A DNA stretch of 64,000 bases from Escherichia phage Mimir124. The notes below the pieces were generated by a model that saw nothing but the letters and a program-made list of their open reading frames with translations, was not told the origin of the DNA and did not search any database. Of the stretch, positions 9,031 to 24,013 are shown piece after piece. Each line of letters opens with the position of its first letter. Positions within the stretch are counted from its first letter, which is position 1. A program made the position numbers and the translations under genes. The DNA lies in sequence record PQ310662.1. One strand, 5' to 3'.

Positions 9031-9055
9031 GACTTAAACAAACTGGAGCCAGGAA

Positions 9056-9753: not shown

Positions 9754-9787
9754 TTAGTAATTCCATTAACTTTAGGAGAGTAAGTAA

Positions 9788-10840
9788 ATGGCGAGCATTG
9801 ACTCCTTGACTGTATGTAATACACGCCAAGCCCGTAACTTTATTATCCGTGCCTTGCAAGCAGGTAACGTGCCGTTCCTGACTTCATCACCAGGCATGGG
9901 TAAGTCTGCAATTATCCGTTCTGTTGCAGATGAATTTGGTATGAAGCTGATTGACCATCGTCTGTCTACTTCTGCCCCAGAAGACTTATCTGGTCTGCCA
10001 TTCCGTAATGGTGACCGCGCAGAGTTTATCCCTTTTGCTGACTTATTCCCTATTGAGGGGGATGAAGTACCTGAAGGTTATAATGGCTGGCTCCTGTTCC
10101 TTGATGAGTTCAACTCAGCTAAGAAAGAAGTAGTAGCTGCTGCATACAAACTGATTCTCGACCGTATGACTGGTCAGAAGAAACTTCACCCTAATGTAAT
10201 GATTGTCTGTGCCGGTAACAAAGCTACTGACCGAGCCATCGTTAACCCACTGGGTACTGCAATGCAGTCCCGTGTTGTCCACTTCGAAATGGAACTTAAC
10301 TTCGACATCTTTGTTGAAGACGTAATGATTCCGCAAGAATGGGATGAGCGTCTGGTTGCATTCTTACATGCTAACCCTGGCTATCTGCACGACTTCGACC
10401 CTGCCCATAAGAACAAAACATTCTGTTGCCCTCGTACCTGGGACTTTGTTAACAAAGACCTTAAGAACCGACCAGAAGGCGCTCTTCCTGATGAAGATTC
10501 TATCTACTATGCAGGTCACGTTACTGCCGGTAAAGCTACAGAGTTTGTTCAGTTCACTCAGGTATACAATCGTATGATTACGATTGAGAAGGTAGTCAAA
10601 GACCCTTTGGGATGTACACTGCCTGAAGATAATAACCTGTGCTGGGCTACCGTTAACCATCTGGCTAACAAGACCACTGAAGATAACTTCGCTGATGTTC
10701 TTCAGTATATTGAACGCTTTAAAACGTTCACTCATAAGATTCTGTACTTCCGTACAGTAGGCAAAGCATTACCAGAAATTCAGGCTACCCCTGAATGGCG
10801 TAAGGCTGCTGCCAATATCTCTCGTTACATTCACGGATAA
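9788..10840 (+). CDS. MoxR-like AAA+ ATPase
   Basis: Walker A SPGMGKSAI, Walker B LLFLDEFN; 350 aa; VWA partner downstream. Confidence 0.7.
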   Translation: MASIDSLTVCNTRQARNFIIRALQAGNVPFLTSSPGMGKSAIIRSVADEFGMKLIDHRLSTSAPEDLSGLPFRNGDRAEFIPFADLFPIEGDEVPEGYNGWLLFLDEFNSAKKEVVAAAYKLILDRMTGQKKLHPNVMIVCAGNKATDRAIVNPLGTAMQSRVVHFEMELNFDIFVEDVMIPQEWDERLVAFLHANPGYLHDFDPAHKNKTFCCPRTWDFVNKDLKNRPEGALPDEDSIYYAGHVTAGKATEFVQFTQVYNRMITIEKVVKDPLGCTLPEDNNLCWATVNHLANKTTEDNFADVLQYIERFKTFTHKILYFRTVGKALPEIQATPEWRKAAANISRYIHG

Positions 10841-10847
10841 TCACATC

Positions 10848-11324
10848 ATGAACTGGAATGACTTGTTCACATACAGCAATGGTGCTCTTTACTGGAAAGT
10901 ATCTAGAGGCCGTGCACTAGCTGGGGCTGTTGCCGGGAGTGTGGACAATAGTGGATACGTTAGAGTCAAATGCTTCAAAAAGATGTACTTGGTTCACCGT
11001 ATAATCTATGAAATGGAAATCGGCCCAATCCCTGATGGCTACCAGGTAGACCATATTGACCATAACAGGTTAAATAACTACCCAAGTAACTTCCGTTTAG
11101 TCACCAATTTAGATAACTGCCGTAACCAAAAGAAAAGGATAACCAATTCTTCTGGTATTACAGGAGTCTATTGGCACTCCAGAGATGAAATATGGGCTGC
11201 TTCCATAAATGATAATGGTAAGCAAATTTATTTAGGAAAATTCCCTAGTAAAGAAGAAGCTGCTAAAGCCAGGAAAGAGGCTGAAAAGCTTATTGGTTAC
11301 CATAAAAATCATGGAGCACCTTAA
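10848..11324 (+). CDS. HNH homing endonuclease with AP2-like domain
   Basis: VDHIDHNRLNNYPSNFRLVTNLDN plus SGITGVYWH...AAKARKEAEKLIGY; paralog of 21725 ORF; inserted between ATPase and VWA genes. Confidence 0.7.
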   Translation: MNWNDLFTYSNGALYWKVSRGRALAGAVAGSVDNSGYVRVKCFKKMYLVHRIIYEMEIGPIPDGYQVDHIDHNRLNNYPSNFRLVTNLDNCRNQKKRITNSSGITGVYWHSRDEIWAASINDNGKQIYLGKFPSKEEAAKARKEAEKLIGYHKNHGAP

Positions 11325-12499
11325 TGAATAACATACCTACACATACCCTTACTGATGAACAGTTAATGAGGGAGTACGACAGGATCCAAGCCAACGCATT
11401 TCTTGGACGCAGCGCAGCGTTTTTTGGTTCATTGCTGTGTAGTCTTAAGTTCTCATGGAAACGTGAGGACTGTCCTACTGCATGTACCGATGGGATAGAA
11501 CTCCATTTCAACCCAGACTTCTTTATCTGGATGTGTCCCGATGCAAGAGAAACAGTGCTAATGCACGAACTCTGGCATGTGGCATATCTGCACGGCATCC
11601 GTTGTGGAAGCCGTGACCCGGAAGTCTGGAACCAGGCATGTGACCACTTCATCAACCTTCAGTTAGAAGAAGATGGTTACAAGTTCACTGGTATCGACAA
11701 AGGCATTTGCAAAGACCCTCAATATAAAGGATGGGTCGAAGAAGACATCTACGATGACCTGATGAAGAACCCTCAGAAAAGGCAGAAGCCGTCAGGGGGT
11801 GCTGGAGCAGGTCTTGCTGGCGACATGAAAGCTCCCTCTTCGGGGCAGTCCCAGGGTGCTGTTGTCAACAACGTAGTACGTGCAATGCAAAGCCAGAAGA
11901 TGGCTGGTGGAATGATGCCCGGTAAAGGTGCTGGTCGTATGGAAGAGGTAATTACCCAATTCCTTAAACCAGTGGTTCCTTGGCAGGAAGTCCTGCTGAA
12001 CTTCTTTACCGACATTGATGACACACACTATACGTGGGCCAGACCTAATCGTCGTTTCACTGACATCTATCTACCTTCTCTGGAAGATGATGAAGGACGC
12101 TTACGACACTTAGCTTACTTTGAGGATGTATCTGGTTCTATTAGTAGTGCTGACTCTCTGCGTTTTAACTCAGAGGTTGCCTACGTTAAGAGCCAGTTCA
12201 ATCCTAAGAAGATGACCCTTATTACCTTCGACGATATTATCCAAGAAGAAATAGACATCACTGAAGAAGATACTTTTGAAGAGATTAAGATTACCGGTCG
12301 TGGTGGTACAAACCTTGAACCAGTGCGTGAATGGATTATTAAGAATAAGCCAACCGCTGCAATCATATTCTCTGATATGTATGTTAAACCAATGGAAGAA
12401 TTACCATTTGATATCCCTATCATCTGGTGTGTTCTGAATAATCCCAATGCTACCGTACCTTTTGGGGAGGTAGTTCATATCCATAAAGGAATGAAATAA
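11324..12499 (+). CDS. VWA-like protein with HExxH motif (partner of AAA+ ATPase)
   Basis: MHELWHVAYLH motif in N-terminal part; C-terminal region with VWA-like alternation; pairing with MoxR-type ATPase. Confidence 0.45.
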   Translation: MNNIPTHTLTDEQLMREYDRIQANAFLGRSAAFFGSLLCSLKFSWKREDCPTACTDGIELHFNPDFFIWMCPDARETVLMHELWHVAYLHGIRCGSRDPEVWNQACDHFINLQLEEDGYKFTGIDKGICKDPQYKGWVEEDIYDDLMKNPQKRQKPSGGAGAGLAGDMKAPSSGQSQGAVVNNVVRAMQSQKMAGGMMPGKGAGRMEEVITQFLKPVVPWQEVLLNFFTDIDDTHYTWARPNRRFTDIYLPSLEDDEGRLRHLAYFEDVSGSISSADSLRFNSEVAYVKSQFNPKKMTLITFDDIIQEEIDITEEDTFEEIKITGRGGTNLEPVREWIIKNKPTAAIIFSDMYVKPMEELPFDIPIIWCVLNNPNATVPFGEVVHIHKGMK

Positions 12500-13005
12500 T
12501 GGTTGTTAACGGTAATTCTCTATATCGTTCGTCTCAATTGCTGGATGTACCAGACCGTAAGGTATCCGAGCATGGTGTAAGTTATGGGCTAGGTGAAGCC
12601 GGTTATGATATTCGTATCAAACAAGACATCACCTTCTATCGCTTATTTGGGTTGATTCCAATGGTGAAAATCGTTGATGGAAAACAAGTATCACGCCATC
12701 TCGGTAAATTCGCATTGGCTTCAGCAATTGAGAAGTTCAATATGTCCCCATCCTGTGTAGCTATCGTTCATGATAAATCCACATGGGCAAGACGTGCATT
12801 ATCAGTATTTAATACCGTAATAGAACCAGGGTGGAAAGGTTGGCTTACTTTAGAGCTTGTCTACCATGGTCGTAAGAAATTGCATATCCCGGCTGGTTCT
12901 GGGATAGCTCAAGTATTATTTCATCTGGTTCAAGAACCTGCTAATTACAATGGCAAGTATATGAACCAGGAAAACAAACCAGTAGCTGCTAGACCTTCAA
13001 AATAA
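12499..13005 (+). CDS. dCTP deaminase/dUTPase-fold protein
   Basis: GYDIRI and VIEPGWKGWLTLELV resemble dCTP deaminase motifs (GYDLR; IDPGfrG.l.lEl). Confidence 0.55.
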   Translation: MVVNGNSLYRSSQLLDVPDRKVSEHGVSYGLGEAGYDIRIKQDITFYRLFGLIPMVKIVDGKQVSRHLGKFALASAIEKFNMSPSCVAIVHDKSTWARRALSVFNTVIEPGWKGWLTLELVYHGRKKLHIPAGSGIAQVLFHLVQEPANYNGKYMNQENKPVAARPSK

Positions 13006-13035
13006 AAGGCTATCCGGCTTAGTCAAGGAAACAAT

Positions 13036-13236
13036 ATGTCAGTATTTCAAGTAACTCCTGTTGGCAGTACTATGCGTAAAACTATTGTTGCAACTAACGT
13101 AGTAGACGTAGATGAAACTCCGGCAGGTGCTGTAATTCGTCTGATTGATGGACGTTCAGTATATGTAGAAGAAAGTTATCGTTCAGTACGTGGTTATATT
13201 CGCAAAGCCATGACTACCGCTTCTGACGCAGAGTAA
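13036..13236 (+). CDS. hypothetical protein (66 aa)
   Basis: ORF with GGAAAC upstream. Confidence 0.4.
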   Translation: MSVFQVTPVGSTMRKTIVATNVVDVDETPAGAVIRLIDGRSVYVEESYRSVRGYIRKAMTTASDAE

Positions 13237-13273
13237 GTAGCTGCCTAAATAGCCCAGCATAATTGGGCTATTT

Positions 13274-13570
13274 GTGAAGAAACTAACTCAACCCTACATA
13301 GGAACCATCATGGAATCTTTAGCAGCAATCCTCGTTCTGTTATTCGCACTAGCTGTATACCTTATCCCTACTATTATTGCTTTTACACGAGGCCATGCCT
13401 CTAAGTGGGGTATTGGTGTACTCAATATCGTATTAGGCTGGTCTTTAGTCTTCTGGGTAGTAGCACTGATTTGGTCACTGTCTAATAAAGGACAGTCTCA
13501 GACTACAATCGTTAACGTTGGTAGTGGTAATCAGTACAACGTGTCTCAAACGAGCCAGTCTGATAAGTAA
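13274..13570 (+). CDS. superinfection-immunity-like small membrane protein
   Basis: IPTIIAFTRGH...LNIVLGWSLVFWVVALIWSL resembles the Imm-type two-TM signature; true start may be the internal M (MESLAA). Confidence 0.4.
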   Translation: MKKLTQPYIGTIMESLAAILVLLFALAVYLIPTIIAFTRGHASKWGIGVLNIVLGWSLVFWVVALIWSLSNKGQSQTTIVNVGSGNQYNVSQTSQSDK

Positions 13571-13645
13571 CTAACCTAAGCATCATTACATAGTGGTGCT
13601 TGCGGAAGTTACTTCCAGCTCATTGCTTATCCATCTCCTAATCCA

Positions 13646-13672
13646 AGCCCACCTAACCCGTGGGCTTTTTTA
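13646..13672 (+). terminator. rho-independent terminator
   Basis: agcccac-ctaaccc-gtgggct followed by tttttaatt. Confidence 0.6.
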
Positions 13673-13687
13673 ATTACAGGTACTCGT

Positions 13688-14077
13688 ATGTCAAACAGAC
13701 GAAATGGTAAGTCTATCTTGCAAGGGATGGACTTCGGTAAGCTGGAACAAACTGCAATGCTTACTTTAGGTAAAACTATGCACGACCTGGTGGAAAAGAA
13801 TGGAATTAACTCTGATGTTTATGCAGCAATGCAGGTTCTTATTCAGAAAGGATGGACTACTAGTAGACCTTTTAGCACCACTTCATACATTCCCCCAGAA
13901 CCTCATCTGAAATCTAAGGTAGACCGAATCATAGATAAGTTCTGGGCATATCCAGGAGAAGGTCACATGTACCTATACTTGGAGCAGTTACGAAAGAATC
14001 CCATTACTCGTGACTTGTTCAAGGGTAAAAGTACTACCCATCACTACCCCTGGTATAGAAGAGGTAGTAAATACTAA
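13688..14077 (+). CDS. hypothetical protein (129 aa)
   Basis: ORF; stop overlaps next start. Confidence 0.4.
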   Translation: MSNRRNGKSILQGMDFGKLEQTAMLTLGKTMHDLVEKNGINSDVYAAMQVLIQKGWTTSRPFSTTSYIPPEPHLKSKVDRIIDKFWAYPGEGHMYLYLEQLRKNPITRDLFKGKSTTHHYPWYRRGSKY

Positions 14078-14520
14078 TGCGTATCCCATTCCTAAGAAAA
14101 AGGGAACGAAATCCTGTTCTTTATAATAAAGGTATAGAGGATGAGTATGAACTCAACCGTAAAGCCCGTTCCTACACAACAAAATTATTTATGGGGACTA
14201 ACAACCCTGATAGATTACTGGACTTTGTTTTTGAACAAGTCTTTATCATATACAGCTTAGCTATGTCTGCTGGTTCACAAGAAGTAAGTGATAAGGCAAG
14301 GGATGCTCTCTGTATGCTCCGTAAAGAGTATGAAGCCCTCCTGTATGAAGACTTGTACTCCTTTAAAAAAGAAACCGCTGTAGCGTGTTCTGTGGCTCTT
14401 ACTGAAGGTATATCAGTATTACAGGAACTACCTCGTAGTGAGTTTAAGCTGGTATATGTTCAGGCCAGGAAGATTACAGAAAACCGTAGTGGTATTACTA
14501 ACTATCTAAGGTCATTCTAA
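14077..14520 (+). CDS. hypothetical protein (147 aa)
   Basis: ORF coupled to neighbours. Confidence 0.4.
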   Translation: MRIPFLRKRERNPVLYNKGIEDEYELNRKARSYTTKLFMGTNNPDRLLDFVFEQVFIIYSLAMSAGSQEVSDKARDALCMLRKEYEALLYEDLYSFKKETAVACSVALTEGISVLQELPRSEFKLVYVQARKITENRSGITNYLRSF

Positions 14521-15464
14521 TGATTAAGGCAACTGTCATTGCAGATTCCGTTCATCATGCAACGGGTACTCGTATTACTACCTTTGAATTGGTCTATCCC
14601 CGATTCATTCACAGTGAGTTTATGACTCACCGTGTGTTCAACCGCAATGCTTCAAGCAGTCGTGCTATCCCCACATCTAAGTTCATCGAACAGGTTCGTA
14701 AGGAACCAGTGATGCCAAGTCACTGGGGCAAGAACCAGAAAGGTATGCAAGCAGATGAAGAACTCACTCCTATGGAGATTGAGGATGCTAAGTTTATCTG
14801 GGATAACGCTGCATCTGCTGCTGCTGTATATGCTGAACAACTCCGTCGTGGACAAGTACATAAGCAGATTGTTAACCGTATTCTGGAACCATTCACGCAT
14901 ATCCGTGTAGTAGTAACTTCAACTAGCTGGGCTAATTTCTATGGCTTGCGTGACCATGAAGACGCTCAACCAGAGATTCGTGAACTGGCCCAAGCAATGC
15001 GTAAGGCTCATAATGAAAGTGTTCCATCAAAACTCATGCAAGGACATTGGCATATGCCATATATCACTGCTAATGATCGTTTTGCTGCTTACGATTTCTG
15101 CAAACATCAACGAATTACTCGTGATGAACCAAGTGGTGCAGAAGTGTATGGACTACTTCTCAAAGTAAGTGCTGCACGTTGTGCCCGTGCTTCTTATAAC
15201 AACTTCGAGGGGCGACCTTCTACTATTGAAGAAGACCTTGGCTTGTTCGCTAAGTTAGTGGAAGACCAGCCTATTCATGCTTCACCAACGGAGCATCAGG
15301 CTACGCCTATGAACCTTGGTGAGAAGTATGTGAATAACATGAACCCAGTTACCTGGGAACAAGGTGTTACATCTATGGATAAAGAAGGAAATCTGTACTC
15401 AGGTAACCTGCTTCACTTTATCCAATTCCGTAAGTTAATTCCTGGTGAGACTATTACTGAATGA
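14520..15464 (+). CDS. flavin-dependent thymidylate synthase (ThyX)-like
   Basis: THRVFNRNASSSRAI fits the ThyX RHR-x7-S-x-R motif with T for the first R; 314 aa. Confidence 0.5.
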   Translation: MIKATVIADSVHHATGTRITTFELVYPRFIHSEFMTHRVFNRNASSSRAIPTSKFIEQVRKEPVMPSHWGKNQKGMQADEELTPMEIEDAKFIWDNAASAAAVYAEQLRRGQVHKQIVNRILEPFTHIRVVVTSTSWANFYGLRDHEDAQPEIRELAQAMRKAHNESVPSKLMQGHWHMPYITANDRFAAYDFCKHQRITRDEPSGAEVYGLLLKVSAARCARASYNNFEGRPSTIEEDLGLFAKLVEDQPIHASPTEHQATPMNLGEKYVNNMNPVTWEQGVTSMDKEGNLYSGNLLHFIQFRKLIPGETITE

Positions 15465-15700
15465 AAAAACTAGCCCTGTATGCAATGCTACTTAGTACCT
15501 TACTCACACTGACCTACGCATACAAAGTCGCCTTTGTCGTAGAAACAGATATGCAGTTCATTCGAGCTAGTATTCTGTTATTTGTAAGTGAGATTGGTTT
15601 GTGGTGTGTTTACTACTTTGCTCGTGACTATGAAGCTATTAAAGAGCATGATGAAGCAAAAGAACGTATGAGACGTTTCGTTGAAGAAAATCGTAAGTAA
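15461..15700 (+). CDS. small membrane protein (79 aa)
   Basis: Two hydrophobic segments; followed by terminator. Confidence 0.4.
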   Translation: MKKLALYAMLLSTLLTLTYAYKVAFVVETDMQFIRASILLFVSEIGLWCVYYFARDYEAIKEHDEAKERMRRFVEENRK

Positions 15701-15705
15701 ACCTA

Positions 15706-15732
15706 AGACCTCCCCCGGGAGGTCTTTTTTTG
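15706..15732 (+). terminator. rho-independent terminator
   Basis: agacctccc-cccg-gggaggtct followed by ttttttt. Confidence 0.7.
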
Positions 15733-15760
15733 GTTTCAATTAACTCTTTTAGGAGGGCAT

Positions 15761-15973
15761 ATGCCTGCTAAATACCGTATCAAAGACACACCACTAATGT
15801 GTGAGGGTGAGAAAGGTGACATTGTATATGCCTGTATCCAAGACGATTTCAATGCTGCTCTGATGTTAACCCAAATGACAAATACACTGCATGTATCAGT
15901 AACACTGGATCCTACCGGTGACTATCCATGCTTCCCTATCCCTGCCCACAACCTGGAGCAAATCCATGATTAA
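15761..15973 (+). CDS. hypothetical protein (70 aa)
   Basis: ORF with AGGAGG upstream. Confidence 0.4.
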   Translation: MPAKYRIKDTPLMCEGEKGDIVYACIQDDFNAALMLTQMTNTLHVSVTLDPTGDYPCFPIPAHNLEQIHD

Positions 15974-16292
15974 TCCTGAAGTTATTCATAGTAAAACTGG
16001 TAAAGCTGTTCCACTCAGTGATATTGCAGTTACCGGTGATATTGCTGCTTGCCCAGCTAACATCGCCTCCCTATGTATGTGCATTGCTGCACTGGCAGAG
16101 GAACGTAAATTATGGCTGGAACCAAGCAAGGAGATGATTCAGGCTGGTTTAGCTGAAGTGCAGAATGTGCTTGATAACTGGGAAGATAACGGTCCGTTAC
16201 CTTATGGTACGGTTAATGACATTACTGATGACATGGCATCAGATATGGCTGTATTCATCCTTCAAGCAATGGCAGGTAAACGTAATGGCTAA
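15966..16292 (+). CDS. hypothetical protein (108 aa)
   Basis: Start moved to ATG 15966 overlapping previous stop (atgattaa); track ORF starts at 15918. Confidence 0.4.
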   Translation: MINPEVIHSKTGKAVPLSDIAVTGDIAACPANIASLCMCIAALAEERKLWLEPSKEMIQAGLAEVQNVLDNWEDNGPLPYGTVNDITDDMASDMAVFILQAMAGKRNG

Positions 16293-16503
16293 TGTAAATA
16301 TCGCCTCAGAGAAAACGTATAGCATTCAGATCAATGGCTTAACAGAATAACAAGTCTTATTCCTAATGAATGCTTTTCAAAACAGTCCATTGGGTCACCA
16401 CCCCAATGATGAACCGCTGGAAGAAGCTGAACTACGTAAAGCTATTTTTGATAAGTGTAAACAAGTACTACTTTAAGCAACATTTAAACTGGAGAATAAA
16501 TAA

Positions 16504-19071
16504 ATGTTAGTTGCAGATACCAATCAATCAGCCACTTCAGCGACACTGGGTGGCAAAGAAACAATTGCCTTTGGCATCTCTGATGACCCGGCATTCTTCC
16601 ATGTATTAAGTACTTCCCTGTATAACAATCCTACTCTGGCAGTAGTCCGTGAGACTATCTGTAACAGTTGGGATGCTCATATTGAAGCAGGTAAGACTGA
16701 TACTCCTATTCGTATCACTATTGATACAGACAACTTTATTACCTTCCGAGACTTCGGTAGCGGTATTCCAGATGAACTCATTGGTTCCATTTATGGTGTC
16801 TATGGTGCATCTACTAAGAAGTCCAACAGTAGTGTTACTGGTGGCTTCGGTCTGGGATGTAAATCCCCATTCGCTTATACAGATAGCTTCCAGGTTACTT
16901 CATGGAACCAAGGAAAGATGTCTGTATATAACGTAGCTAAGGCTGCGATTGAGAATGATGGTAAACCGGGTATTGTTCCTATTGTTACCAATATTCCTAC
17001 TGAGGAATCTGGTCTGGAAGTTAAATTCCAGTTAGGCAAGCATGATGTAAATACCTTCGTGCATTACATCACATCAATTGTGTTTAACGGTGAGATTAAA
17101 GCTGAGCTTAGTATTCCTAAACTCGTTAAAACAGAAGAGGGTAACAGTATTCAGCAGGGTGATTACACTCTACTGAATACACTGGGTATGTCATTTGAAC
17201 CTGGTTCGTATGATATGTCTGATAGATGGTATCAAGGCTATATGGGTAGTAGTAACATATACGTTCGCTACGGTAACGTAATGTACCCAATAGTATCTAG
17301 CCCGGCTAGTGAAGAGGCTGTAGGGCTTATCCTCAACTTCATGAATATTATTGGTGCTTTTAATTTAGTAGTTCAGGCTGCACCAGACACCTTAGCTATT
17401 GCTCCTAGTCGAGAAACACTGTCTAACCAGAAGTTAACTGATGATGGTATTACTACTCTATGCGTAGATTTAGTAGACCGTATGGAGAAAGAGATTAAGG
17501 CTAAGATTCCTGAAGCTATTAAACAGATTGAGGAATATGCCTCTGAATCCTCTACCCGTTTCTGGGAATATCCATCATTCCTACTTGCCGTTACAGACAA
17601 AACTGTTCAACGCTATATGTCCTCTAGTTTGTGGGCTAAGCAACGTAAGCATCATATCAAGCACTGGCGTAACTTATCCAATAAGGCATTATTAGCTCGT
17701 CCTGAATATGCAGGTCTTAAGAAACTGTATGGTAAGGCTATGCGTGCTCTTAAGGATACTCGTGAAGAAAGTACATACTCCCCATTCCATGAATTAGTAT
17801 ATCGTCATCTGCACTTACCCCAGCTTGCTGCTTTAAAAGCTATAGGTATTAAGTGGTCTGGCTACATAGTGAACCAGGGTAACAGTGTTGACTTGGAGAA
17901 AGGTAAACTCGCTGACTACTTTAGAATATTCCATAACTCCCACCAGAGTATTGGCATATTCACTACCAAGAACGTTGTAGTTACTCGACGTTTGTCTGAT
18001 TGTGCTGACTCTTTCTCATACTTCCCTGAATACAACAGAGGTGACTTGGAGCGTACAGCTTTTGTTCACGTCGTTGGACCTAAGAAGGGTGCGGCAGAGG
18101 AAGCTGTAGCTAAGTTCACTGCTATGGGTTATCGGGTAATTGACCTTACTCAATACAATGAGTGGGACAAACCAACTAACTTCCGTAGGGAACAGGCTAA
18201 GATAGCTGCTGAGAAACGAGCTAAGACAATAGCTACCAATAAAACCAAAGCAGGAGGTAAAACTAATGCTCTGATTTCATTGAATGCAGTTAATGGTACT
18301 ACTATTGTACGGGATAAAAATGGTGATTGGTTATCTAAGCCTTATATTCAGAATGAGTTTGCTGACCCAAGCCGCCATGATAAATCTGGTTTCGTTGAAG
18401 TAGAGAAGCCAAAGTACTATGTACTGGCTAATCAGGTTGGTTCAGGTAGCCCAGTAACTGCCAGTATTGGAACCATGTGGAAATGGTATGAGTTATCTGA
18501 TGAGATGAAAGCAGAGACTGTTGTCTGTCGTAATCAAATCGAAGCTAACAAGGCTAAACGACGAGGTGCTATCCACATTGATGATGTTCGCTTTAGTGAA
18601 TTGATGTCAGTTATTACCAGTAAAGGCTTCAAGAAATATGTTACTGAACACCGCATCGGTATTCTGGAATACGTAGGGCTGGATGACAGAGAGTATTGGG
18701 AAATCCTCGACATACTGGGTCTAACATTCAAACCATTACAGAATCTGATTTTTAAACCAGAATATGAATGGGCATATGACTTTCTACGGAATCGCCCACT
18801 CAACAACAAAGAAAAACTTGTTGAAATGGGTTGTATTAAGTCAGTGAATGATTTAAAGCCATATGCAAGGATGGTTAACCCACGTAACCATAAGTACTAT
18901 GAGATACTTAGTAGTTACAAAGAGTTATTCAGCTATAGCTGGAATAAAAATGACATCCTACAGACGCTGGACTTAGGTAGTTTGGTCAAACACCTTAAGA
19001 AGAATCCAGAGGATATTCCTGGGTTTAAGTCCCTCTACCGTAATCGTCTAAATAAACTGAAAGGTAACTAA
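16504..19071 (+). CDS. rIIA-like protein with N-terminal GHKL/histidine-kinase-like ATPase domain
   Basis: ETICNSWDAH...ITFRDFGSGIP...GGFGLGCKSPF match GHKL N, G1 and G2 boxes; 855 aa. Confidence 0.55.
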   Translation: MLVADTNQSATSATLGGKETIAFGISDDPAFFHVLSTSLYNNPTLAVVRETICNSWDAHIEAGKTDTPIRITIDTDNFITFRDFGSGIPDELIGSIYGVYGASTKKSNSSVTGGFGLGCKSPFAYTDSFQVTSWNQGKMSVYNVAKAAIENDGKPGIVPIVTNIPTEESGLEVKFQLGKHDVNTFVHYITSIVFNGEIKAELSIPKLVKTEEGNSIQQGDYTLLNTLGMSFEPGSYDMSDRWYQGYMGSSNIYVRYGNVMYPIVSSPASEEAVGLILNFMNIIGAFNLVVQAAPDTLAIAPSRETLSNQKLTDDGITTLCVDLVDRMEKEIKAKIPEAIKQIEEYASESSTRFWEYPSFLLAVTDKTVQRYMSSSLWAKQRKHHIKHWRNLSNKALLARPEYAGLKKLYGKAMRALKDTREESTYSPFHELVYRHLHLPQLAALKAIGIKWSGYIVNQGNSVDLEKGKLADYFRIFHNSHQSIGIFTTKNVVVTRRLSDCADSFSYFPEYNRGDLERTAFVHVVGPKKGAAEEAVAKFTAMGYRVIDLTQYNEWDKPTNFRREQAKIAAEKRAKTIATNKTKAGGKTNALISLNAVNGTTIVRDKNGDWLSKPYIQNEFADPSRHDKSGFVEVEKPKYYVLANQVGSGSPVTASIGTMWKWYELSDEMKAETVVCRNQIEANKAKRRGAIHIDDVRFSELMSVITSKGFKKYVTEHRIGILEYVGLDDREYWEILDILGLTFKPLQNLIFKPEYEWAYDFLRNRPLNNKEKLVEMGCIKSVNDLKPYARMVNPRNHKYYEILSSYKELFSYSWNKNDILQTLDLGSLVKHLKKNPEDIPGFKSLYRNRLNKLKGN

Positions 19072-19075
19072 TCTG

Positions 19076-21124
19076 ATGAAAATCGAACTGATTTCTATCA
19101 TCGCACTGGCAGTTGACAGTCGAAACCTCACACTGTGGAAGCCAGATGGCTCCACGGTTGTATATCCACAAAGCGACCCACGGGTTGCTCGTATTGTATC
19201 TGAAGCACAGACTAAAGGTCTTGGCACTACCCAGGACCAAATAGAAGTAAACATTGCACCAGAAGTAGAACTTCGTACTGAATATCTGGAAGCAGAGAAG
19301 AACACCAACGGATTCGTCCGTTTCTTCAAGGTAGCTAAGGCTAAGCTAAAAGAGTTCTTCGAGGATGGTACAAGTGTTCAACCAGCCCGTATCATTTCAG
19401 ATATTAAACTGGGTAATCCTACAAAGACTCTGGTGTCTAAAGCTATGGATACCTTCCTGGCTGGCCAGGCAAATGAACCAGAAGTAACGGTGGCAGATGG
19501 TTGTTACGACAAACGTGACAATCTGATGTGGGTTACTGGTTGGGATAAGGACCATAACCATCTTGCACTGGTTCGTTTTATTAATGACGTACTGGGTTGG
19601 GGTTATGACCATACTAATCGCATCCTTGCACGGGAATGGCCTATTGGAATCCGTGCAGTATCCGATGATGAAATGGGTGAGTTTGCTAAACAAGCCAAGC
19701 ACATCAAAGGAGTACACATTGTATTCACCAGCCGTAAACATACCCCACCACCTTACATTGAAGTAGCTAAAACTACGAACCAGGATAAGCTGGCTGCTGC
19801 TTCTGAGAAGTTAGCTGCATTGGGTGCTATTAGTACCGATGACGCTAACTTCCACACTGAAGTGAAAGAAGATGAAGTGGTTGTTGCTGTTACCAACAAT
19901 GGGGTTATCCCTGGAGTTGAGAACCTGCAACGTCACCTACGCCAATCTGCCAAACTGAAAGACTATAAGGGCTTTACTAAGTTCCTTGAGCGTCTGGCTC
20001 CGGTTATTAAAGACCGTTTGCACTCAGTGGAAGACTTGATGAAGTTCATGGAAACTGCTGAACTGCCTATCGCTGATGATGGCTCTATCCTGTTCCTGAA
20101 ACGCCTTAAGTTCCGGGGTACAGAAGACGGTAAACGTGTATTCGTTGACTGTCACTCAGGTAACATCCGTCAGTGGGTAGGCTGTAAAGTACAGGTACGA
20201 GAAGACCTGGTAGACCCTGACCGTCGTCAGGACTGCTCTAATGGCCTACACGTAGCATCCATGAGCTATATCCGTAGCTTCGGTGGTAACGTAACTATCC
20301 TTGGTAAAGTAGCACCGGAAGATGTATTTGCTGTTCCTCAGTACAGCACCAATAAGATGCGTGTATCTGCATATCATATTATTGCTGAACTGCCGGAAGA
20401 AGAACGTAATAACGTTAACAATGGTATCTACCTGTCTAAGACAGAAGTAGGTAAAAAGTTGCTTAATGATGCCATCGTTGGGAACCATAGTTCACCTACC
20501 ACTCTTATTATGGTTGGTGGACATCGTGGTACTAACCTCAAATACACTAATCTTACATCTGGTTCTGTAGAACAATTCCGTACAGTTGCTAGTAAAGAAG
20601 CACTGAACATGGAAGAGTCACTGAATGAAGCCGTAGCTGCTGAACCAGTGAAGGCTACTGACCTTAAACCTGTTATTAAGAAGGCTCCTACTGTGAAAGA
20701 ACAAATCCAGGAACTGGTCAAAGAGTTCCTTAATGCAACAACCCCGGAAGATAAGTTAGCTGCTGCTGACCTTCTGGTAGAACTGCGTTCCAAAGCCAGA
20801 AAGCCTTGGGGTGCATTCGACGTAGGTAGTGATGTAGTAGACGCTATTGCTACTATCCGTAGTACTCGTATTCCTGCACCTAAAGCTGTTAAGCAGGATA
20901 AGACAGTTAAACCTACACGTTCTGCTGCTGCCACTAAAGTAGCTCCGTCTGGTAAACACGCTGATAATCTGCGTAGCATCCTGAACGATACGACGTACTC
21001 CGACTATCAGAAAGGCCATGCTCTGCAAGACTATAAGCGTCATGCTAAGAAGTCATTCACTGCAATGGGTCTGACTGAAGAAGAAGCTAAGTTAGCTACC
21101 AAGCTGGTTAAGGCTGCTAAGTAA
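19076..21124 (+). CDS. rIIB-like protein (assigned by position after rIIA-like)
   Basis: 682-aa ORF immediately after the rIIA-like gene; no diagnostic motif recognised. Confidence 0.3.
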   Translation: MKIELISIIALAVDSRNLTLWKPDGSTVVYPQSDPRVARIVSEAQTKGLGTTQDQIEVNIAPEVELRTEYLEAEKNTNGFVRFFKVAKAKLKEFFEDGTSVQPARIISDIKLGNPTKTLVSKAMDTFLAGQANEPEVTVADGCYDKRDNLMWVTGWDKDHNHLALVRFINDVLGWGYDHTNRILAREWPIGIRAVSDDEMGEFAKQAKHIKGVHIVFTSRKHTPPPYIEVAKTTNQDKLAAASEKLAALGAISTDDANFHTEVKEDEVVVAVTNNGVIPGVENLQRHLRQSAKLKDYKGFTKFLERLAPVIKDRLHSVEDLMKFMETAELPIADDGSILFLKRLKFRGTEDGKRVFVDCHSGNIRQWVGCKVQVREDLVDPDRRQDCSNGLHVASMSYIRSFGGNVTILGKVAPEDVFAVPQYSTNKMRVSAYHIIAELPEEERNNVNNGIYLSKTEVGKKLLNDAIVGNHSSPTTLIMVGGHRGTNLKYTNLTSGSVEQFRTVASKEALNMEESLNEAVAAEPVKATDLKPVIKKAPTVKEQIQELVKEFLNATTPEDKLAAADLLVELRSKARKPWGAFDVGSDVVDAIATIRSTRIPAPKAVKQDKTVKPTRSAAATKVAPSGKHADNLRSILNDTTYSDYQKGHALQDYKRHAKKSFTAMGLTEEEAKLATKLVKAAK

Positions 21125-21303
21125 TGGTTAGCATTGATAAGGTGGATATACGGGAAGTAATCACACCCCTAAAGCAAACCGTTATAAGGATTTGTGTAAA
21201 GTACAACGGACACTTTGGTCAATTCTTTGAAGGCTTGTCTCTAGAAGATGCGATGAAAGAGTTCGGAGAATGGTATAAGAACCAGTCCTAGCCTGTTCAA
21301 AAG

Positions 21304-21334
21304 CCCTCACTTGTAATAAAGTGAGGGTAATTTT
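21304..21334 (+). terminator. probable terminator
   Basis: ccctcactt-gtaata-aagtgaggg hairpin followed by taatttt. Confidence 0.45.
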
Positions 21335-21350
21335 GAGGAGGAAATAAGCT

Positions 21351-21707
21351 ATGTCTAAAGTATTCAGAAGTAATCGCAAAGCAACTGATGAAGACATCAT
21401 TCGCATGAATGCTGTTGGTCTGTCCCTCGCAACTATCGCTAAGACGTTGGGGGTTCACCCCACTACGGTTACACTTCGGCTACGTTCTTTGAATATAGAA
21501 CCTGCGGATACAAGAAGAACCTTTATGGAAAATGTTCTAACTCCACTACCTACACCTATGATTGATTGGTTAGCTGAACAGCTCGGCCCTAAATATGAAA
21601 TTAGGCAGTTTGTAAGGGATTTGCTGATAGATGCCTATAAGAATAGACAAGCAACAGACCTCCCTGCACACATCCGTTACTTACGGGCATATGGGGGGGA
21701 AGAATAA
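21351..21707 (+). CDS. putative HTH DNA-binding protein
   Basis: LSLATIAKTLGVHPTTVTLRL resembles a helix-turn-helix. Confidence 0.4.
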   Translation: MSKVFRSNRKATDEDIIRMNAVGLSLATIAKTLGVHPTTVTLRLRSLNIEPADTRRTFMENVLTPLPTPMIDWLAEQLGPKYEIRQFVRDLLIDAYKNRQATDLPAHIRYLRAYGGEE

Positions 21708-21724
21708 TTTCCATAGAGGTACTA

Positions 21725-22204
21725 ATGCATAATTGGAATGAAATACTTACCTACTCTAACGGTAAGCTGTACTGGGCAATAAAACCGAAACGGGGTACAC
21801 AAATAGGTGACCCCGTGGGAAATCCGAATAAAAACGGGTATTTACGTTTTCAATATAAAGGAAAACATTATTTAGTCCACCGCATTGTGTGGGAAATGCA
21901 CTATGGAGAAATACCCATGGGAATGCAGGTAGACCACATATGGCATAACAAGCTAGATAATAGGATAGAGAATCTTAGGTTAGTGACTCCTCTGGATAAC
22001 CAGAGAAACAGAAGTAAAGCTCCAAAAAATACATCAGGAGTTACAGGTGTATGTTGGAGCAAACCAAGTGCTAAGTGGTTAGCGAGTATAACTGTTAAGG
22101 GTATTCGTAAACACTTAGGAATGTTTGACAATATAGAGGATGCTGCAAAAGCCCGTAAGCAAGCAGAATTGCTTTACGGATTCCATCCTAATCACGGTAA
22201 ATAA
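21725..22204 (+). CDS. HNH homing endonuclease with AP2-like domain
   Basis: VDHIWHNKLDNRIENLRLVTPLDNQRN plus SGVTGVCW...AAKARKQAELLYGF; N-terminus parallels the 10848 ORF. Confidence 0.7.
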   Translation: MHNWNEILTYSNGKLYWAIKPKRGTQIGDPVGNPNKNGYLRFQYKGKHYLVHRIVWEMHYGEIPMGMQVDHIWHNKLDNRIENLRLVTPLDNQRNRSKAPKNTSGVTGVCWSKPSAKWLASITVKGIRKHLGMFDNIEDAAKARKQAELLYGFHPNHGK

Positions 22205-22206
22205 CT

Positions 22207-22659
22207 ATGAGTAATTCTTTAAACGATACGCTGGAAAACACACGGCAATGGTTTGAAATCGCAGTAGCGAATCCGACGAGTAAGAACATTAGTACCCAGA
22301 TTGGTTGTCATCTGGAAGAAGTAGCTGAAATGCTGGAGACAATTAGTAGTATCTATAAAGATGACGCTAAAATACTTGCTTCCTTACACGATGCTATTAA
22401 CTACGTAGCAGACCGTATTAAACAAAACGGTGGTATTGTTGTGAAAGACCCTATAGGACTTTTGGACAGCATTGCTGATCAGATTGTTACAGCAACTGGC
22501 GTCGGTACTTTCCTTGGGATGAATGTCCCTGGAGCATTGGCTGAAGTCAATCGCTCAAACTATTCCAAGTTCGAAGATGGGGAACCTATCTTCAACGAGA
22601 ACAAGAAAGTCATGAAAGGGAAAGACTACACTCCCCCCGATTTATCACCTTACATCTAA
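22207..22659 (+). CDS. MazG-like nucleotide pyrophosphohydrolase (putative)
   Basis: HLEEVAEMLE and DSIADQIV resemble MazG-type EE..E / D..D metal-binding helices. Confidence 0.4.
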   Translation: MSNSLNDTLENTRQWFEIAVANPTSKNISTQIGCHLEEVAEMLETISSIYKDDAKILASLHDAINYVADRIKQNGGIVVKDPIGLLDSIADQIVTATGVGTFLGMNVPGALAEVNRSNYSKFEDGEPIFNENKKVMKGKDYTPPDLSPYI

Positions 22660-22680
22660 CCCTCTACGGAGGGTTTTTTA
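22660..22680 (+). terminator. rho-independent terminator
   Basis: ccctc-tacg-gaggg followed by tttttt. Confidence 0.6.
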
Positions 22681-22692
22681 CTGGAGATTTAA

Positions 22693-24003: not shown

Positions 24004-24013
24004 GGGAGGGTAT

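What the first reader, a model, noticed from the sequence alone, without database searches (positions are those of the whole stretch)
12499..22659. Nucleotide-pool remodelling set: dCTP deaminase-like, ThyX-like and MazG-like genes
Together these would raise dUMP/dTMP supply and hydrolyse non-canonical or alarmone nucleotides. The ThyX-like protein is unusually long (314 aa) and has T in place of the first motif arginine. The assignments rest on short motifs only.
Basis: partly seen in the sequence, partly recalled or inferred. Interest (0 to 1): 0.35.

Follow-up and report, generated by a model that had tools for sequence, protein, structure and literature searches.

The report
N4-type phage dCTP-to-dTMP gene trio
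Three scattered genes of an N4-like coliphage most likely turn dCTP into dTMP; the set is already annotated in related phages, but its thymidylate synthase belongs to a large ThyX branch with a rearranged chain order.

Summary
The window is most of a Gamaleyavirus-type (N4-like) coliphage. ORFs 12499-13005, 14520-15464 and 22207-22659 are homologues of N4 gp26, gp30 and gp36. Relatives about 90% identical in DNA already carry the names dCTP deaminase, FAD-dependent thymidylate synthase and NTP pyrophosphohydrolase.

Profile support exists for the first two (Pfam DCD 58.7 bits, Thy1 51.9 bits). The third has no Pfam hit. It matches PHROG 671, and by profile-profile comparison it matches the DR2231 family (98.5%), whose founder is reported to hydrolyse only dUTP.

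The ThyX-like length (314 aa) and the Thr replacing the first Arg of RHR are normal for its family, which has more than 2,800 50%-identity clusters and T in 144 of 151 representatives. The extra length arises because the helical segment that is N-terminal in canonical ThyX sits near the C-terminus here.

Best model: dCTP to dUTP (gp26-like), dUTP to dUMP (gp36-like, inferred), dUMP to dTMP (gp30-like). This would feed a 43% GC genome.

The alarmone reading has no support. The three genes are not contiguous. This is an ordinary, known kind of gene set, with a modestly interesting enzyme variant.

The parts
12499..13005 (+). dCTP deaminase-like gene (168 aa), homologue of N4 gp26. Its start overlaps the stop of the upstream vWA/metallopeptidase gene (TAATG).
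   Evidence: Pfam DCD 9.6e-16 and PHROG 1663 7.7e-57. TIGR02274 scores 76.2 bits, below its 92.8 cutoff. The best solved relatives are the short-type Dcd 3km3 and 4dhk, at about 1e-10. S94-x3-R98 (nt 12778-12792) and E119 in 'TLE' (nt 12853-12855) align to the same residues of those Dcd chains. N4 gp26 is annotated as dCTP deaminase.
13645..13667 (+). Terminator-like hairpin with a T run, upstream of the four-gene unit that holds the ThyX-like gene.
   Evidence: Consensus scan. This is a pattern match only.
13688..14520 (+). Two unknown genes (129 aa, N4 gp28-like; 147 aa, N4 gp29-like), translationally coupled to each other and to the ThyX-like gene through TAATG overlaps at 14077 and 14520.
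   Evidence: ORF list. PHROG 12812 and 9867 are both 'unknown function', and there is no Pfam hit. Junction sequences were read. The same order holds in N4, Bas96 and IME11. Whether they act with ThyX was not tested.
14520..15464 (+). ThyX-like flavin-dependent thymidylate synthase homologue (314 aa), homologue of N4 gp30.
14625..14666 (+). Variant ThyX signature: T36-H37-R38 ... S46-S47-R48-A49, where T. maritima ThyX has R78-H79-R80 ... S88-G89-R90-Y91.
   Evidence: hhalign residue mapping. Family counts over 151 representatives: T36 144, H37 150, R38 142, S46 149, R48 150, A49 150. Translation checked.
15129..15305 (+). Relocated module (residues 204-262). It holds the two helices and the H253-A-S-P-T-E258-H259 motif, which correspond to residues about 19-63 at the N-terminus of canonical ThyX (S30, H53, T55, E58).
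   Evidence: The family profile against PDB sequences gives order-swapped matches to T. maritima ThyX. hhalign of this segment alone against Tm ThyX 21-59 gives P 8e-6. A profile of the C-terminal part alone has Tm ThyX N-terminal residues as its 10 best PDB hits. Re-inserting the segment after residue 14 extends the Pfam match to profile positions 9-13 and adds 4-6 bits in 5 of 6 family members tested.
15461..15700 (+). 79-aa hydrophobic protein (N4 gp31-like). Its ATG overlaps the ThyX-like stop codon (ATGA).
   Evidence: PHROG 12633 is of unknown function.
15705..15726 (+). Strong terminator-like hairpin (9 pairs, then TTTTT) that closes the four-gene unit.
   Evidence: This is a pattern match only.
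22207..22659 (+). All-alpha NTP pyrophosphohydrolase-like gene (150 aa), 79% identical to N4 gp36. It is the candidate dUTP pyrophosphatase. Motifs: E37-E38-x-x-E41 (nt 22315-22329), D87-x3-D91 (nt 22465-22479), E113-V-N-R-S-N118-x-S-K121 (nt 22543-22569).
   Evidence: N4 gp36 identity. PHROG 671 1.4e-34, with weaker PHROG 2144 and 12019 'MazG-like' hits. Invariant residues come from a 32-sequence alignment. hhalign against the DR2231 family gives 98.5% and E 3.7e-15 over 73 columns. There is no Pfam or NCBIfam hit.
22658..22675 (+). Terminator-like hairpin immediately after the MazG-like stop codon.
   Evidence: This is a pattern match only.

Best explanation
These are the N4 gp26, gp30 and gp36 homologues of a Gamaleyavirus-type coliphage. 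They lie in the replication-gene block and together form a phage-encoded route from dCTP to dTMP.

Step 1: the gp26-like enzyme deaminates dCTP to dUTP. This is inferred from homology and from the conserved Ser/Arg/Glu residues.

Step 2: the gp36-like all-alpha pyrophosphohydrolase cleaves dUTP to dUMP and PPi. This is inferred from homology to the dUTP-specific DR2231 family and from pathway logic. It is the weakest step, and host Dut could also do it.

Step 3: the gp30-like enzyme is a flavin-dependent thymidylate synthase that methylates dUMP to dTMP, using methylene-tetrahydrofolate and reduced flavin. This is inferred from the fold and from conserved catalytic residues. Host kinases would then make dTTP.

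The net effect is to shift pyrimidine deoxynucleotides from C to T for a 43% GC genome replicating in a host of about 51% GC.

The gp30-like protein is a normal member of a very large branch of ThyX. In that branch the helical segment carrying the flavin- and folate-contacting residues (canonical S30, H53, T55, E58) is encoded near the C-terminus instead of the N-terminus. In the same branch three canonical contact residues are replaced: the first Arg of RHR by Thr, the 'lid' Tyr by Ala, and a second flavin-phosphate Arg by Thr.
For: Identity of the locus:
- The region is 88-91% identical in DNA to IME11, Bas96, ECBP1, St11Ph5 and others, with the same gene names in those records.
- Gene order matches N4 gp24 to gp39.

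Dcd-like: profile hits and conserved K-S-T-W-A-R and T-L-E motifs, as in the solved short-type Dcd chains.

ThyX-like:
- The only significant fold matches are ThyX or PolB.
- The residues equivalent to T. maritima H79, R80, N85, S88, R90, R147, N169, R174, S30, H53, T55 and E58 are kept in 139-151 of 151 cluster representatives.
- In homologues, inteins sit beside the THR motif and inside the HxSPxEH motif, as inteins typically do at conserved catalytic sites (that tendency is from general knowledge).
- The family is also chromosomal in Verrucomicrobiota, Kiritimatiellia and Lentisphaerae genomes, in a conserved non-phage neighbourhood of epimerase, GHL10-like hydrolase and sigma-54. That argues for a housekeeping enzyme.
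- Partners that supply or consume dU or dT nucleotides recur with it: Dcd plus a gp36-like gene within 5 kb in a Roseococcus contig, a dNMP kinase next to it in an Erythrobacter chromosome, and dCMP deaminase in roseophages (PMC2784036).

gp36-like:
- hhalign gives 98.5% to the DR2231 family.
- DR2231 is reported as 'exclusive activity on dUTP' (title cited in PMC10014863).
- JGI gives the same name to members of both families.
- No trimeric dUTPase, RNR, dNMP kinase or DHFR is annotated in the whole genome of the relative IME11.

The C-to-T rationale is already published for N4-like roseophages (PMC11981692).
Against: - No member of the gp30 branch or of the gp36 family has, to my knowledge or in the searchable library, been assayed.
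- The first RHR arginine contacts both the flavin ring and dUMP in canonical ThyX, and the Tyr shields the reacting atoms (PMC6514825). Their family-wide replacement could mean altered chemistry or substrate.
- Both the Dcd-like and the ThyX-like protein score below NCBIfam equivalog cutoffs.
- Only the C-terminal half of the gp36 family aligns to DR2231, and the second metal motif is DxxxD rather than ExxD. Substrate specificity in this superfamily is not predictable from sequence.
- E. coli already has Dcd, Dut and ThyA, so none of the steps is strictly needed.
- The three genes lie in different terminator-bounded units.
Confidence: 0.6

Rival explanations
1. The gp36-like protein is not a dUTPase. 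It is instead a pool-sanitising or pool-biasing pyrophosphohydrolase with another preference, for example dGTP/dCTP as described for a cyanophage MazG (from my memory), or damaged dNTPs. Host Dut would then supply the dUMP.
For: There is no Pfam or NCBIfam assignment. Only the C-terminal 73 columns align to the DR2231 family. The N-terminal invariant residues W15, Q31, C34 and H35 are specific to the gp36 family. tblastn also links the C-terminal half to actinophage and cyanophage 'MazG-like' genes. PMC5122711 describes the Deinococcus enzyme as promiscuous rather than specific.
Against: The only characterised relative reachable by profile comparison is later reported as dUTP-exclusive. The gene travels with Dcd and the ThyX-like gene in N4-type genomes, compactly so in L098. 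No other dUTPase is annotated in the phage.
Confidence: 0.35
2. The gp26-like enzyme is a bifunctional dCTP deaminase-dUTPase, or mainly a dUTPase. It would give dUMP directly, so gp36 would be unrelated to this pathway.
For: The protein also hits bifunctional M. tuberculosis DCD-DUT chains (2qxx, 4a6a) and a Sulfolobus 'hypothetical dUTPase' (2yzj). It gives weak dUTPase profile hits. PMC5122711 notes archaeal 'Dcd' proteins that are really dUTPases.
Against: The Dcd profiles score far better than the dUTPase profiles: 58.7 against 25.2 bits in Pfam, and 76.2 against 25.9 bits in NCBIfam. The closest solved chains are the short proteobacterial-type Dcd. Nothing in the sequence separates mono- from bifunctional enzymes with the tools used here.
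Confidence: 0.15
3. The gp30 branch has changed reaction or substrate. It could act on a nucleotide other than dUMP, as PolB acts on UMP, or release a hydroxymethyl or other C5 product as a precursor of modified DNA.
For: Residues that contact flavin and dUMP or shield C5/N5 are replaced family-wide: R78 to T, Y91 to A, R165 to T, E86 to A (residue roles from PMC6514825). The branch has its own invariant insertions: W69-G-x-N-x-x-G75-M-Q77, H114-K115, W177-H178-x-P180, Q302-x-R304. PolB, a UMP/dUMP methylase, is among the closest folds. A dCTP deaminase plus dUTPase plus TS-homologue trio is also the known route to 5-hmdUTP in T-modified phages (bioRxiv 10.1101/2025.03.26.645540).
Against: The uracil- and phosphate-binding residues R48, R120 and R144, and S46, are invariant. 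Chromosomal copies in PVC bacteria sit in housekeeping contexts. No aGPT-PPlase, kinase or glycosyltransferase genes typical of thymidine hypermodification are annotated in the relatives. From my own knowledge, N4 DNA is regarded as unmodified and these phages sequence and digest normally.
Confidence: 0.1
4. The MazG-like protein hydrolyses (p)ppGpp to reprogramme the host stringent response (part of the first reader's suggestion).
For: Only the generic superfamily membership and the old hypothesis for phage MazG proteins, repeated in PMC8265664.
Against: There is no detectable similarity to E. coli-type MazG profiles (PF03819 is absent at E<=10 in all 20 members). The nearest family is DR2231 / PRA-PH-like. 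The gene sits in the replication module next to the helicase and polymerase genes.
Confidence: 0.05

Closest known systems
N4 gp26 / gp30 / gp36 and their annotated homologues in Gamaleyavirus phages (IME11, Bas96, ECBP1, St11Ph5, PhAPEC7)
   Same: Same gene order and same lengths. DNA identity is about 88-91%. The best database homologues of the ThyX-like and gp36-like proteins, including one from Gamaleyavirus phage vB_EcoP_PhAPEC5, are 92-94% identical. Against N4 itself the gp36-like protein is 79% identical and the closest N4-type ThyX-like homologue listed is about 70%. The public records use the names dCTP deaminase, FAD-dependent thymidylate synthase and NTP pyrophosphohydrolase.
   Different: This window has an extra HNH endonuclease wedged between the gp35-like and gp36-like genes, and another before the vWA gene. 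The exact ThyX-like and gp36-like sequences are not in the 15-billion-protein collection.
Canonical flavin-dependent thymidylate synthase ThyX (T. maritima TM0449, M. tuberculosis Rv2754c, H. pylori, PBCV-1 A674R)
   Different: About 90 residues longer. The helical segment that is N-terminal in canonical ThyX is encoded at residues 204-262. THR replaces RHR, Ala replaces the lid Tyr, and Thr replaces the second flavin-phosphate Arg. There are branch-specific insertions. It scores below the TIGR02170 cutoff.
DR2231 of Deinococcus radiodurans (MazG-like all-alpha pyrophosphohydrolase, reported as dUTP-specific; PDB 2yeu, 5i0m and others)
   Same: Profile-profile match of 98.5% over the C-terminal 73 columns. 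Shared residues include the Asp of helix 3, E-V-x-R-x-N-x-S-K and G-K-x-x-K. Both families carry an EExxE motif.
   Different: The N-terminal halves do not align. The gp36 family has DxxxD where DR2231 has ExxD, Asn where DR2231 has an invariant His, and its own invariant W15, Q31, C34 and H35. The activity of the phage protein is untested.
Short proteobacterial-type dCTP deaminase (PDB 4dhk Burkholderia, 3km3 Anaplasma) and E. coli Dcd
   Same: Same family by profile. The KST(Y/W)AR and (V/L)TLE motifs are conserved.
   Different: About 20 residues shorter at the N-terminus than the 188-206-aa bacterial enzymes. It scores below the TIGR02274 cutoff. Whether it is mono- or bifunctional is unknown.
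dCTP deaminase / dUTPase / thymidylate-synthase-homologue trio of T-hypermodifying phages (SP-15, YerA41 type)
   Same: The same three enzyme classes in one phage.
   Different: Those phages use the trio to make 5-hmdUTP, and they also encode aGPT-PPlase and other tailoring enzymes. No such genes are annotated in the close relatives. According to that preprint, the N4-type polymerase has an inactive UDG-like domain.

Membership tests
dCTP deaminase (Pfam PF22769 DCD / NCBIfam TIGR02274) | Profile match above the curated threshold | tested here: inconclusive
   Pfam DCD scores 58.7 bits, above its cutoff of 27. TIGR02274 scores 76.2 bits, below its equivalog cutoff of 92.8.
dCTP deaminase (Pfam PF22769 DCD / NCBIfam TIGR02274) | Conserved Ser-x3-Arg loop and the Glu of the 'TLE' strand. 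From my knowledge these correspond to E. coli S111, R115 and E138. | tested here: met
   S94, R98 and E119 align to the same residues in 3km3, 4dhk and 4xjc.
dCTP deaminase (Pfam PF22769 DCD / NCBIfam TIGR02274) | Deamination of dCTP to dUTP, inhibited by dTTP | not testable with these tools
   This needs an enzyme assay.
ThyX flavin-dependent thymidylate synthase (Pfam PF02511 / TIGR02170) | Profile match above the curated threshold and over the whole domain | tested here: inconclusive
   Pfam scores 51.9 bits, above its cutoff of 24.8, but covers only profile positions 60-190 of 191. TIGR02170 scores 54.1 bits, below its cutoff of 87.9.
ThyX flavin-dependent thymidylate synthase (Pfam PF02511 / TIGR02170) | ThyX signature RHRxxxxxxxS(x)R | tested here: not met
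   The protein reads T36-H37-R38 ... S46-S47-R48. The first Arg is Thr here and in 144 of 151 family representatives.
ThyX flavin-dependent thymidylate synthase (Pfam PF02511 / TIGR02170) | ThyX fold | tested here: met
ThyX flavin-dependent thymidylate synthase (Pfam PF02511 / TIGR02170) | Canonical order of segments: N-terminal helices with S30, H53 and E58 come before the RHR strand | tested here: not met
   The equivalent segment lies at residues 204-262, after the core.
ThyX flavin-dependent thymidylate synthase (Pfam PF02511 / TIGR02170) | Remaining flavin, folate and dUMP contact residues | tested here: met
   H37, R38, N43, S46, R48, R120, N139, R144, S225, H253, S255 and E258 are conserved in 139-151 of 151 representatives. 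The lid Tyr and a second flavin-phosphate Arg are replaced.
ThyX flavin-dependent thymidylate synthase (Pfam PF02511 / TIGR02170) | FAD-bound homotetramer making dTMP from dUMP; complements thyA | not testable with these tools
   No assay of any member of this branch was found in the library.
All-alpha NTP pyrophosphohydrolase superfamily (MazG / HisE / dimeric dUTPase), DR2231-like branch | Match to a curated superfamily profile (PF03819 MazG, PF01503 PRA-PH) | tested here: not met
   There is no hit for the window protein. PRA-PH appears at E 0.03 in only 2 of 20 close homologues.
All-alpha NTP pyrophosphohydrolase superfamily (MazG / HisE / dimeric dUTPase), DR2231-like branch | Homology to a member family shown by profile-profile comparison | tested here: met
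   hhalign of A3 against A4 (the DR2231 family, whose members are all PF01503) gives 98.5% and E 3.7e-15.
All-alpha NTP pyrophosphohydrolase superfamily (MazG / HisE / dimeric dUTPase), DR2231-like branch | Metal-binding EExxE ... ExxD motifs | tested here: inconclusive
   E37-E38-x-x-E41 is invariant. The second motif reads D87-x3-D91 instead of ExxD.
All-alpha NTP pyrophosphohydrolase superfamily (MazG / HisE / dimeric dUTPase), DR2231-like branch | Four-helix-bundle fold | tested here: inconclusive
   The AlphaFold2 model predicts four helices but has pLDDT 51. Its Foldseek matches are meaningless.
All-alpha NTP pyrophosphohydrolase superfamily (MazG / HisE / dimeric dUTPase), DR2231-like branch | dUTP-specific hydrolysis to dUMP and PPi | not testable with these tools
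   This needs a substrate panel.
N4-like phages (Schitoviridae, Enquatrovirinae, Gamaleyavirus) | Synteny and high identity with N4-type genomes, including the giant virion RNA polymerase | tested here: met
   50 records cover at least 80% of the 11-kb query at 60-95% identity. Gene order is as in N4 gp24-gp39. A 3,449-aa ORF lies at 37647-47996 on the minus strand.

The most novel reading that the evidence does not exclude
The gp30 branch of ThyX is found in thousands of phage lineages and, as a chromosomal gene, in PVC-group bacteria. It may be a mechanistically distinct flavin enzyme. Its chain is rearranged, and three canonical active-site residues (the first RHR Arg, the lid Tyr and a flavin-phosphate Arg) are replaced by small residues and presumably substituted by branch-specific insertions. 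If so, it might bind flavin or nucleotide differently, or accept a different substrate or give a different C5 product than dUMP to dTMP. Inhibitors designed against canonical ThyX might then not apply to it.
Probability: 0.12. Interest if true: 0.6.

Novelty: new member of a known kind. Interest (0 to 1): 0.27.

Why it matters
As a gene set it matters little. It is the standard pyrimidine-conversion complement of N4-like phages, and it is already named in GenBank and discussed in the literature.

Two by-products may be useful.

First, annotators should know that about 300-aa 'ThyX' proteins with a THR motif are a coherent, very large branch. Their partial Pfam match results from a relocated segment, not from degeneration.

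Second, N4 gp36-type proteins, mostly labelled 'hypothetical', are DR2231-like. They are therefore the obvious candidate for the missing dUTPase step between the phage Dcd and ThyX.

Both points can be tested with simple enzymology. The first is relevant to ThyX mechanism and inhibitor work.

Tried and rejected
- A single-sequence search of the gp36-like protein against PDB sequences returned only designed coiled coils and noise. Profiles of close and of diverse homologues placed DR2231 only at E 0.3-0.9. The link became significant only with profile-profile comparison.
- The AlphaFold2 model of the gp36-like protein was poor (pLDDT 51). Its Foldseek search gave only meaningless helical-bundle hits, which I discarded.
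- The afdb50 library was not available.
- A simple circular permutation of the ThyX-like protein, cut at residue 170, did not extend the Pfam match (variant 1). Only inserting residues 204-262 after the first strand did. I therefore describe a relocated segment, not a clean circular permutation.
- The isolated C-terminal part gives no Pfam hit on its own (variant 4). It does not align to M. tuberculosis ThyX as a single sequence.
- Long homologues of 520-650 aa were checked for informative domain fusions. They carry inteins with HNH or LAGLIDADG endonucleases, not metabolic domains.
- Literature searches for a permuted or variant-motif ThyX in N4-like phages found nothing specific. The DR2231 papers and Liu & Yang 2004 ('distinctive ThyX motifs' in Trichodesmium) are not held, and the genome scan did not return Trichodesmium. 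Whether that complemented enzyme belongs to this branch remains open.
- Flanks of gp36-like genes in viral contigs rarely contain a ThyX-like gene within 3 kb (4 of about 75 loci) and never contain a Dcd-like gene. Tight linkage is therefore not general.

Full report
WHAT THE WINDOW IS.
The 64-kb window is 43.3% GC. It carries a 3,449-aa ORF on the minus strand, rIIA- and rIIB-like genes, a Dda-like helicase and an 859-aa ORF at the position of the DNA polymerase gene. The 11 kb around the finding is 88-91% identical to many E. coli N4-like phages of the genus Gamaleyavirus, including IME11, Bas96, ECBP1, St11Ph5 and PhAPEC7. Fifty records cover at least 80% of it. Gene order equals that of N4 gp24 to gp39. 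The three ORFs of the finding are therefore the homologues of N4 gp26 (12499-13005), gp30 (14520-15464) and gp36 (22207-22659). In the relatives they are already named dCTP deaminase, (FAD-dependent) thymidylate synthase and nucleotide pyrophosphohydrolase. N4 gp30 was called a putative thymidylate synthase in 2009 (PMC2784036).

CHECK OF THE OBSERVATION.
The ORFs and their lengths are as stated.

dCTP deaminase-like gene:
- Pfam DCD scores 58.7 bits (cutoff 27) and PHROG 1663 gives 7.7e-57.
- TIGR02274 scores 76.2 bits, below its equivalog cutoff of 92.8.
- The best solved relatives are the short proteobacterial-type Dcd chains 4dhk and 3km3. Against them the K-S-T-W-A-R loop (S94, R98) and the T-L-E strand (E119) are conserved.

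ThyX-like gene:
- Pfam Thy1 scores 51.9 bits (cutoff 24.8) but covers only profile positions 60-190.
- PHROG 85 gives 1.5e-112.
- TIGR02170 scores 54.1 bits, below its cutoff of 87.9.
- T36-H37-R38 is confirmed.

MazG-like gene:
- There is no Pfam or NCBIfam hit, even at E<=10 across 20 homologues.
- PHROG 671 'nucleotide pyrophosphohydrolase' gives 1.4e-34.
- The protein is 79% identical to N4 gp36.

The three genes are not a cassette. About 20 other genes lie in the span, including rIIA, rIIB, an immunity protein, an HNH endonuclease and small unknowns. Terminator-like hairpins at 13645, 15705 and 22658 place the three genes in different units.

THE THYX-LIKE PROTEIN.
Its length and its Thr are family traits. 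A search of 1.84 billion cluster representatives found 5,228 relatives at E<=0.001 and 2,819 at E<=1e-30. Most are 270-340 aa long and match along the whole query. Among 151 representatives at no more than 50% mutual identity, T36 occurs in 144 and Arg in one.

The reason for the partial match is a rearranged chain order.
- The family profile hits T. maritima ThyX in two pieces whose order is swapped. Query 93-171 matches chain 133-213, and query 210-263 matches chain 31-79, which is the N-terminal 'SAVRAARVSF ... HETPFEH' segment.
- hhalign of residues 200-265 alone against Tm ThyX aligns to residues 21-59 with P 8e-6.
- A profile of the C-terminal 142 residues alone, searched against 177,635 PDB sequences, has the N-terminus of Tm ThyX as its ten best hits (E about 0.1 each, effectively one protein).
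- When residues 204-262 are moved in silico to follow residue 14, the Pfam match extends from profile positions 60-190 to 9-13 through 190 and gains 4-6 bits. This holds in the window protein and in four of five other members. The fifth has no Pfam hit in either form.
- A plain circular permutation does not have this effect.

In the model the N-terminal hairpin (strands 3-12 and 18-27) runs straight into the THR helix. Helices 206-223 and 236-248 plus H253-A-S-P-T-E258-H259 follow the core.

Residue mapping and family counts show which residues are kept and which are replaced.
- Kept, with the T. maritima equivalent in brackets: H37 (H79), R38 (R80), N43 (N85), S46 (S88), R48 (R90), R120 (R147), N139 (N169), R144 (R174), S225 (S30), H253 (H53), S255 (T55), E258 (E58).
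- Replaced family-wide: R78 to T36, E86 to A44, Y91 to A49 (150 of 151), N163 to T133, R165 to T135, H178 to D148.

According to a review of FDTS structures, the first RHR arginine contacts the isoalloxazine ring and dUMP. M. tuberculosis R190 (H. pylori R165), a second Arg, binds the flavin phosphates, and I map it to T. maritima R165. The Tyr forms a lid over C5 and N5 (PMC6514825). The branch also has its own invariant insertions: W69-G-x-N-x-x-G75-M-Q77, H114-K115, W177-H178-x-P180 and Q302-x-R304. These may take over the roles of the replaced residues. That last point is inference.

EVIDENCE THAT THE BRANCH IS A WORKING ENZYME.
- In longer homologues the extra length is inteins. They sit between FIH and (C)EFMTHR, directly after THR, and between H253 and the following SP-x-EH. 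These are sites of the conserved-motif kind that inteins favour (that tendency is from general knowledge).
- A scan of one genome per bacterial and archaeal species found 66 loci. Some are N4-type contigs or prophages, for example L080. L098 has vWA, Dcd, ThyX-like, gp35, gp36-like, helicase and polymerase genes within 10 kb.
- About 22 of the loci are Verrucomicrobiota, Kiritimatiellia or Lentisphaerae genomes. There the gene lies in a neighbourhood conserved between species, with an NAD-dependent epimerase and a GHL10-like glycosidase, and with sigma-54 or succinyl-CoA-ligase-like genes nearby. That is a chromosomal, housekeeping-like context.
- In an Erythrobacter chromosome the neighbour is a deoxynucleotide monophosphate kinase.
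- In N4-like roseophages the partner is a dCMP deaminase (PMC2784036).

All of this fits a dUMP-consuming, dTMP-producing enzyme. None of it is an assay, and I found no assay of this branch in the library.

THE GP36-LIKE PROTEIN.
I collected diverse homologues (30-50% identity) from viral contigs. The invariant residues are W15, G33, E37, E38, E41, K72, D91, V94, T95, G98, V114, S117, N118, K121, K134, K137 and L146.

The profile puts DR2231 of Deinococcus among the top PDB sequences, but without significance (E 0.3-0.9). I then built an alignment of the DR2231 family, whose members are all Pfam PRA-PH. JGI names these 'predicted HAD superfamily Cof-like phosphohydrolase', the same name it gives one gp36 homologue. 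Profile-profile comparison gives 98.5% probability and E 3.7e-15 over the C-terminal 73 columns. Both families carry an EExxE motif in the unaligned N-terminal half.

DR2231 is described as a MazG-like enzyme and, in a later title, as having 'exclusive activity on dUTP' (cited in PMC10014863). An earlier review calls it promiscuous (PMC5122711). The original papers are not held.

The structure model of the phage protein was too poor to use. tblastn also links the C-terminal half to 'MazG-like' genes of actinophages and cyanophages.

MECHANISM PROPOSED.
The proposed steps are dCTP to dUTP (gp26-like), dUTP to dUMP plus PPi (gp36-like), and dUMP to dTMP (gp30-like). Host kinases would then make dTTP.

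The whole genome of the relative IME11 has no other annotated nucleotide-metabolism gene: no trimeric dUTPase, RNR, dNMP kinase or DHFR. The trio would therefore be the phage's entire contribution, and gp36 is the only candidate for the middle step. The purpose is plausibly to bias pyrimidine pools toward T for a 43% GC genome, as argued for N4-like roseophages (PMC11981692).

My confidence by step is as follows:
- family assignments, about 0.9;
- Dcd activity, about 0.75;
- thymidylate synthase activity of the gp30 branch, about 0.8;
- dUTP specificity of gp36, about 0.45;
- the whole chain, about 0.6.

RIVALS.
- gp36 as a pyrophosphohydrolase with another preference.
- gp26 as a bifunctional Dcd-dUTPase.
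- gp30 with altered substrate or product. The same enzyme trio makes 5-hmdUTP in T-hypermodifying phages, but no tailoring genes are annotated in the relatives.
- ppGpp hydrolysis, which has no specific support.

VERDICT.
It is the known, already annotated pyrimidine module of N4-like phages, here in a new close relative. The exact ThyX-like and gp36-like sequences are not in the 15-billion-protein collection.

They are explained by a relocated segment in a large ThyX branch, which I could not find described in the searchable literature. The gp36-DR2231 link gives a concrete, testable candidate for the dUTPase step.

Noticed in passing
Homologues P0312, P0323, P0258, P0288, P0261, P0363, P0364 of window 14520-15464: Long members (550-650 aa) of the ThyX-like family carry inteins with LAGLIDADG or HNH endonuclease domains at three sites: before (C)EFMTHR, right after THR, and between H253 and SPxEH. 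So both motif regions are intein homing sites.
   Followed up: partly
L101, L106-L127, L134, L143 (Verrucomicrobiota, Kiritimatiellia and Lentisphaerae genome contigs): The THR-type ThyX is a chromosomal gene in about 22 PVC-group species. Its non-phage neighbourhood is conserved between species: NAD-dependent epimerase and GHL10-like glycosidase, with sigma-54 nearby. Whether these genomes lack thyA and canonical thyX could not be checked.
   Followed up: partly
window 10848-11324 and 21725-22204 (+): These are two paralogous HNH homing-endonuclease ORFs (PHROG 99, 2e-63 and 5e-68) that are absent from these positions in N4 and IME11. The second is wedged between the gp35-like and gp36-like genes, which overlap by 77 nt in N4. 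Bas96 has a different HNH insertion, right after its Dcd gene.
   Followed up: partly
window 13688-15700 (+), bounded by hairpins at 13645-13667 and 15705-15726: The ThyX-like gene is the third of four genes with overlapping stop and start codons (TAATG, TAATG, ATGA). The partners are two unknown proteins (129 and 147 aa, N4 gp28/gp29-like) and a 79-aa hydrophobic protein. Dcd is likewise coupled to the upstream vWA/metallopeptidase gene (TAATG at 12499).
   Followed up: no
window 22207-22659; IME11 record 40697-41035: Many database homologues of the gp36-like protein are annotated as 109-112-aa proteins and lack the N-terminal 40 residues that hold the EExxE motif. Examples are IME11_33 and clusters P0176 and P0184-P0238. 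This looks like start-codon miscalling in those records, or a real truncation in that sub-lineage.
   Followed up: no
window 9500-24500: Sigma-70-like promoter matches are depleted: 18 found against 32.7 +/- 4.8 in shuffles. Terminator-like hairpins are enriched: 19 against 10.4 +/- 3.4. This is consistent with middle genes read by the phage's own RNA polymerase II.
   Followed up: no
window 35862-35936 (+): A single tRNA-Ile gene with anticodon AAT is the only tRNA found in the window.
   Followed up: no
L098 (Roseococcus sp. MAG contig, 296 kb), locus positions 788-10900: This is a compact N4-type replication module inside a large bacterial contig: vWA, Dcd, ThyX-like, gp35-like, gp36-like, helicase, gp38-like and DNA polymerase, with no rIIA/rIIB between them. 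It may be an integrated or mis-binned N4-like element.
   Followed up: no
L137 (Erythrobacter sp. chromosome), locus positions 4417-4989: A deoxynucleotide monophosphate kinase gene (Pfam DNMK, 1.8e-11) lies directly upstream of a ThyX-like gene, with a Dda-like helicase-sized ORF before it. The context looks prophage-like.
   Followed up: no
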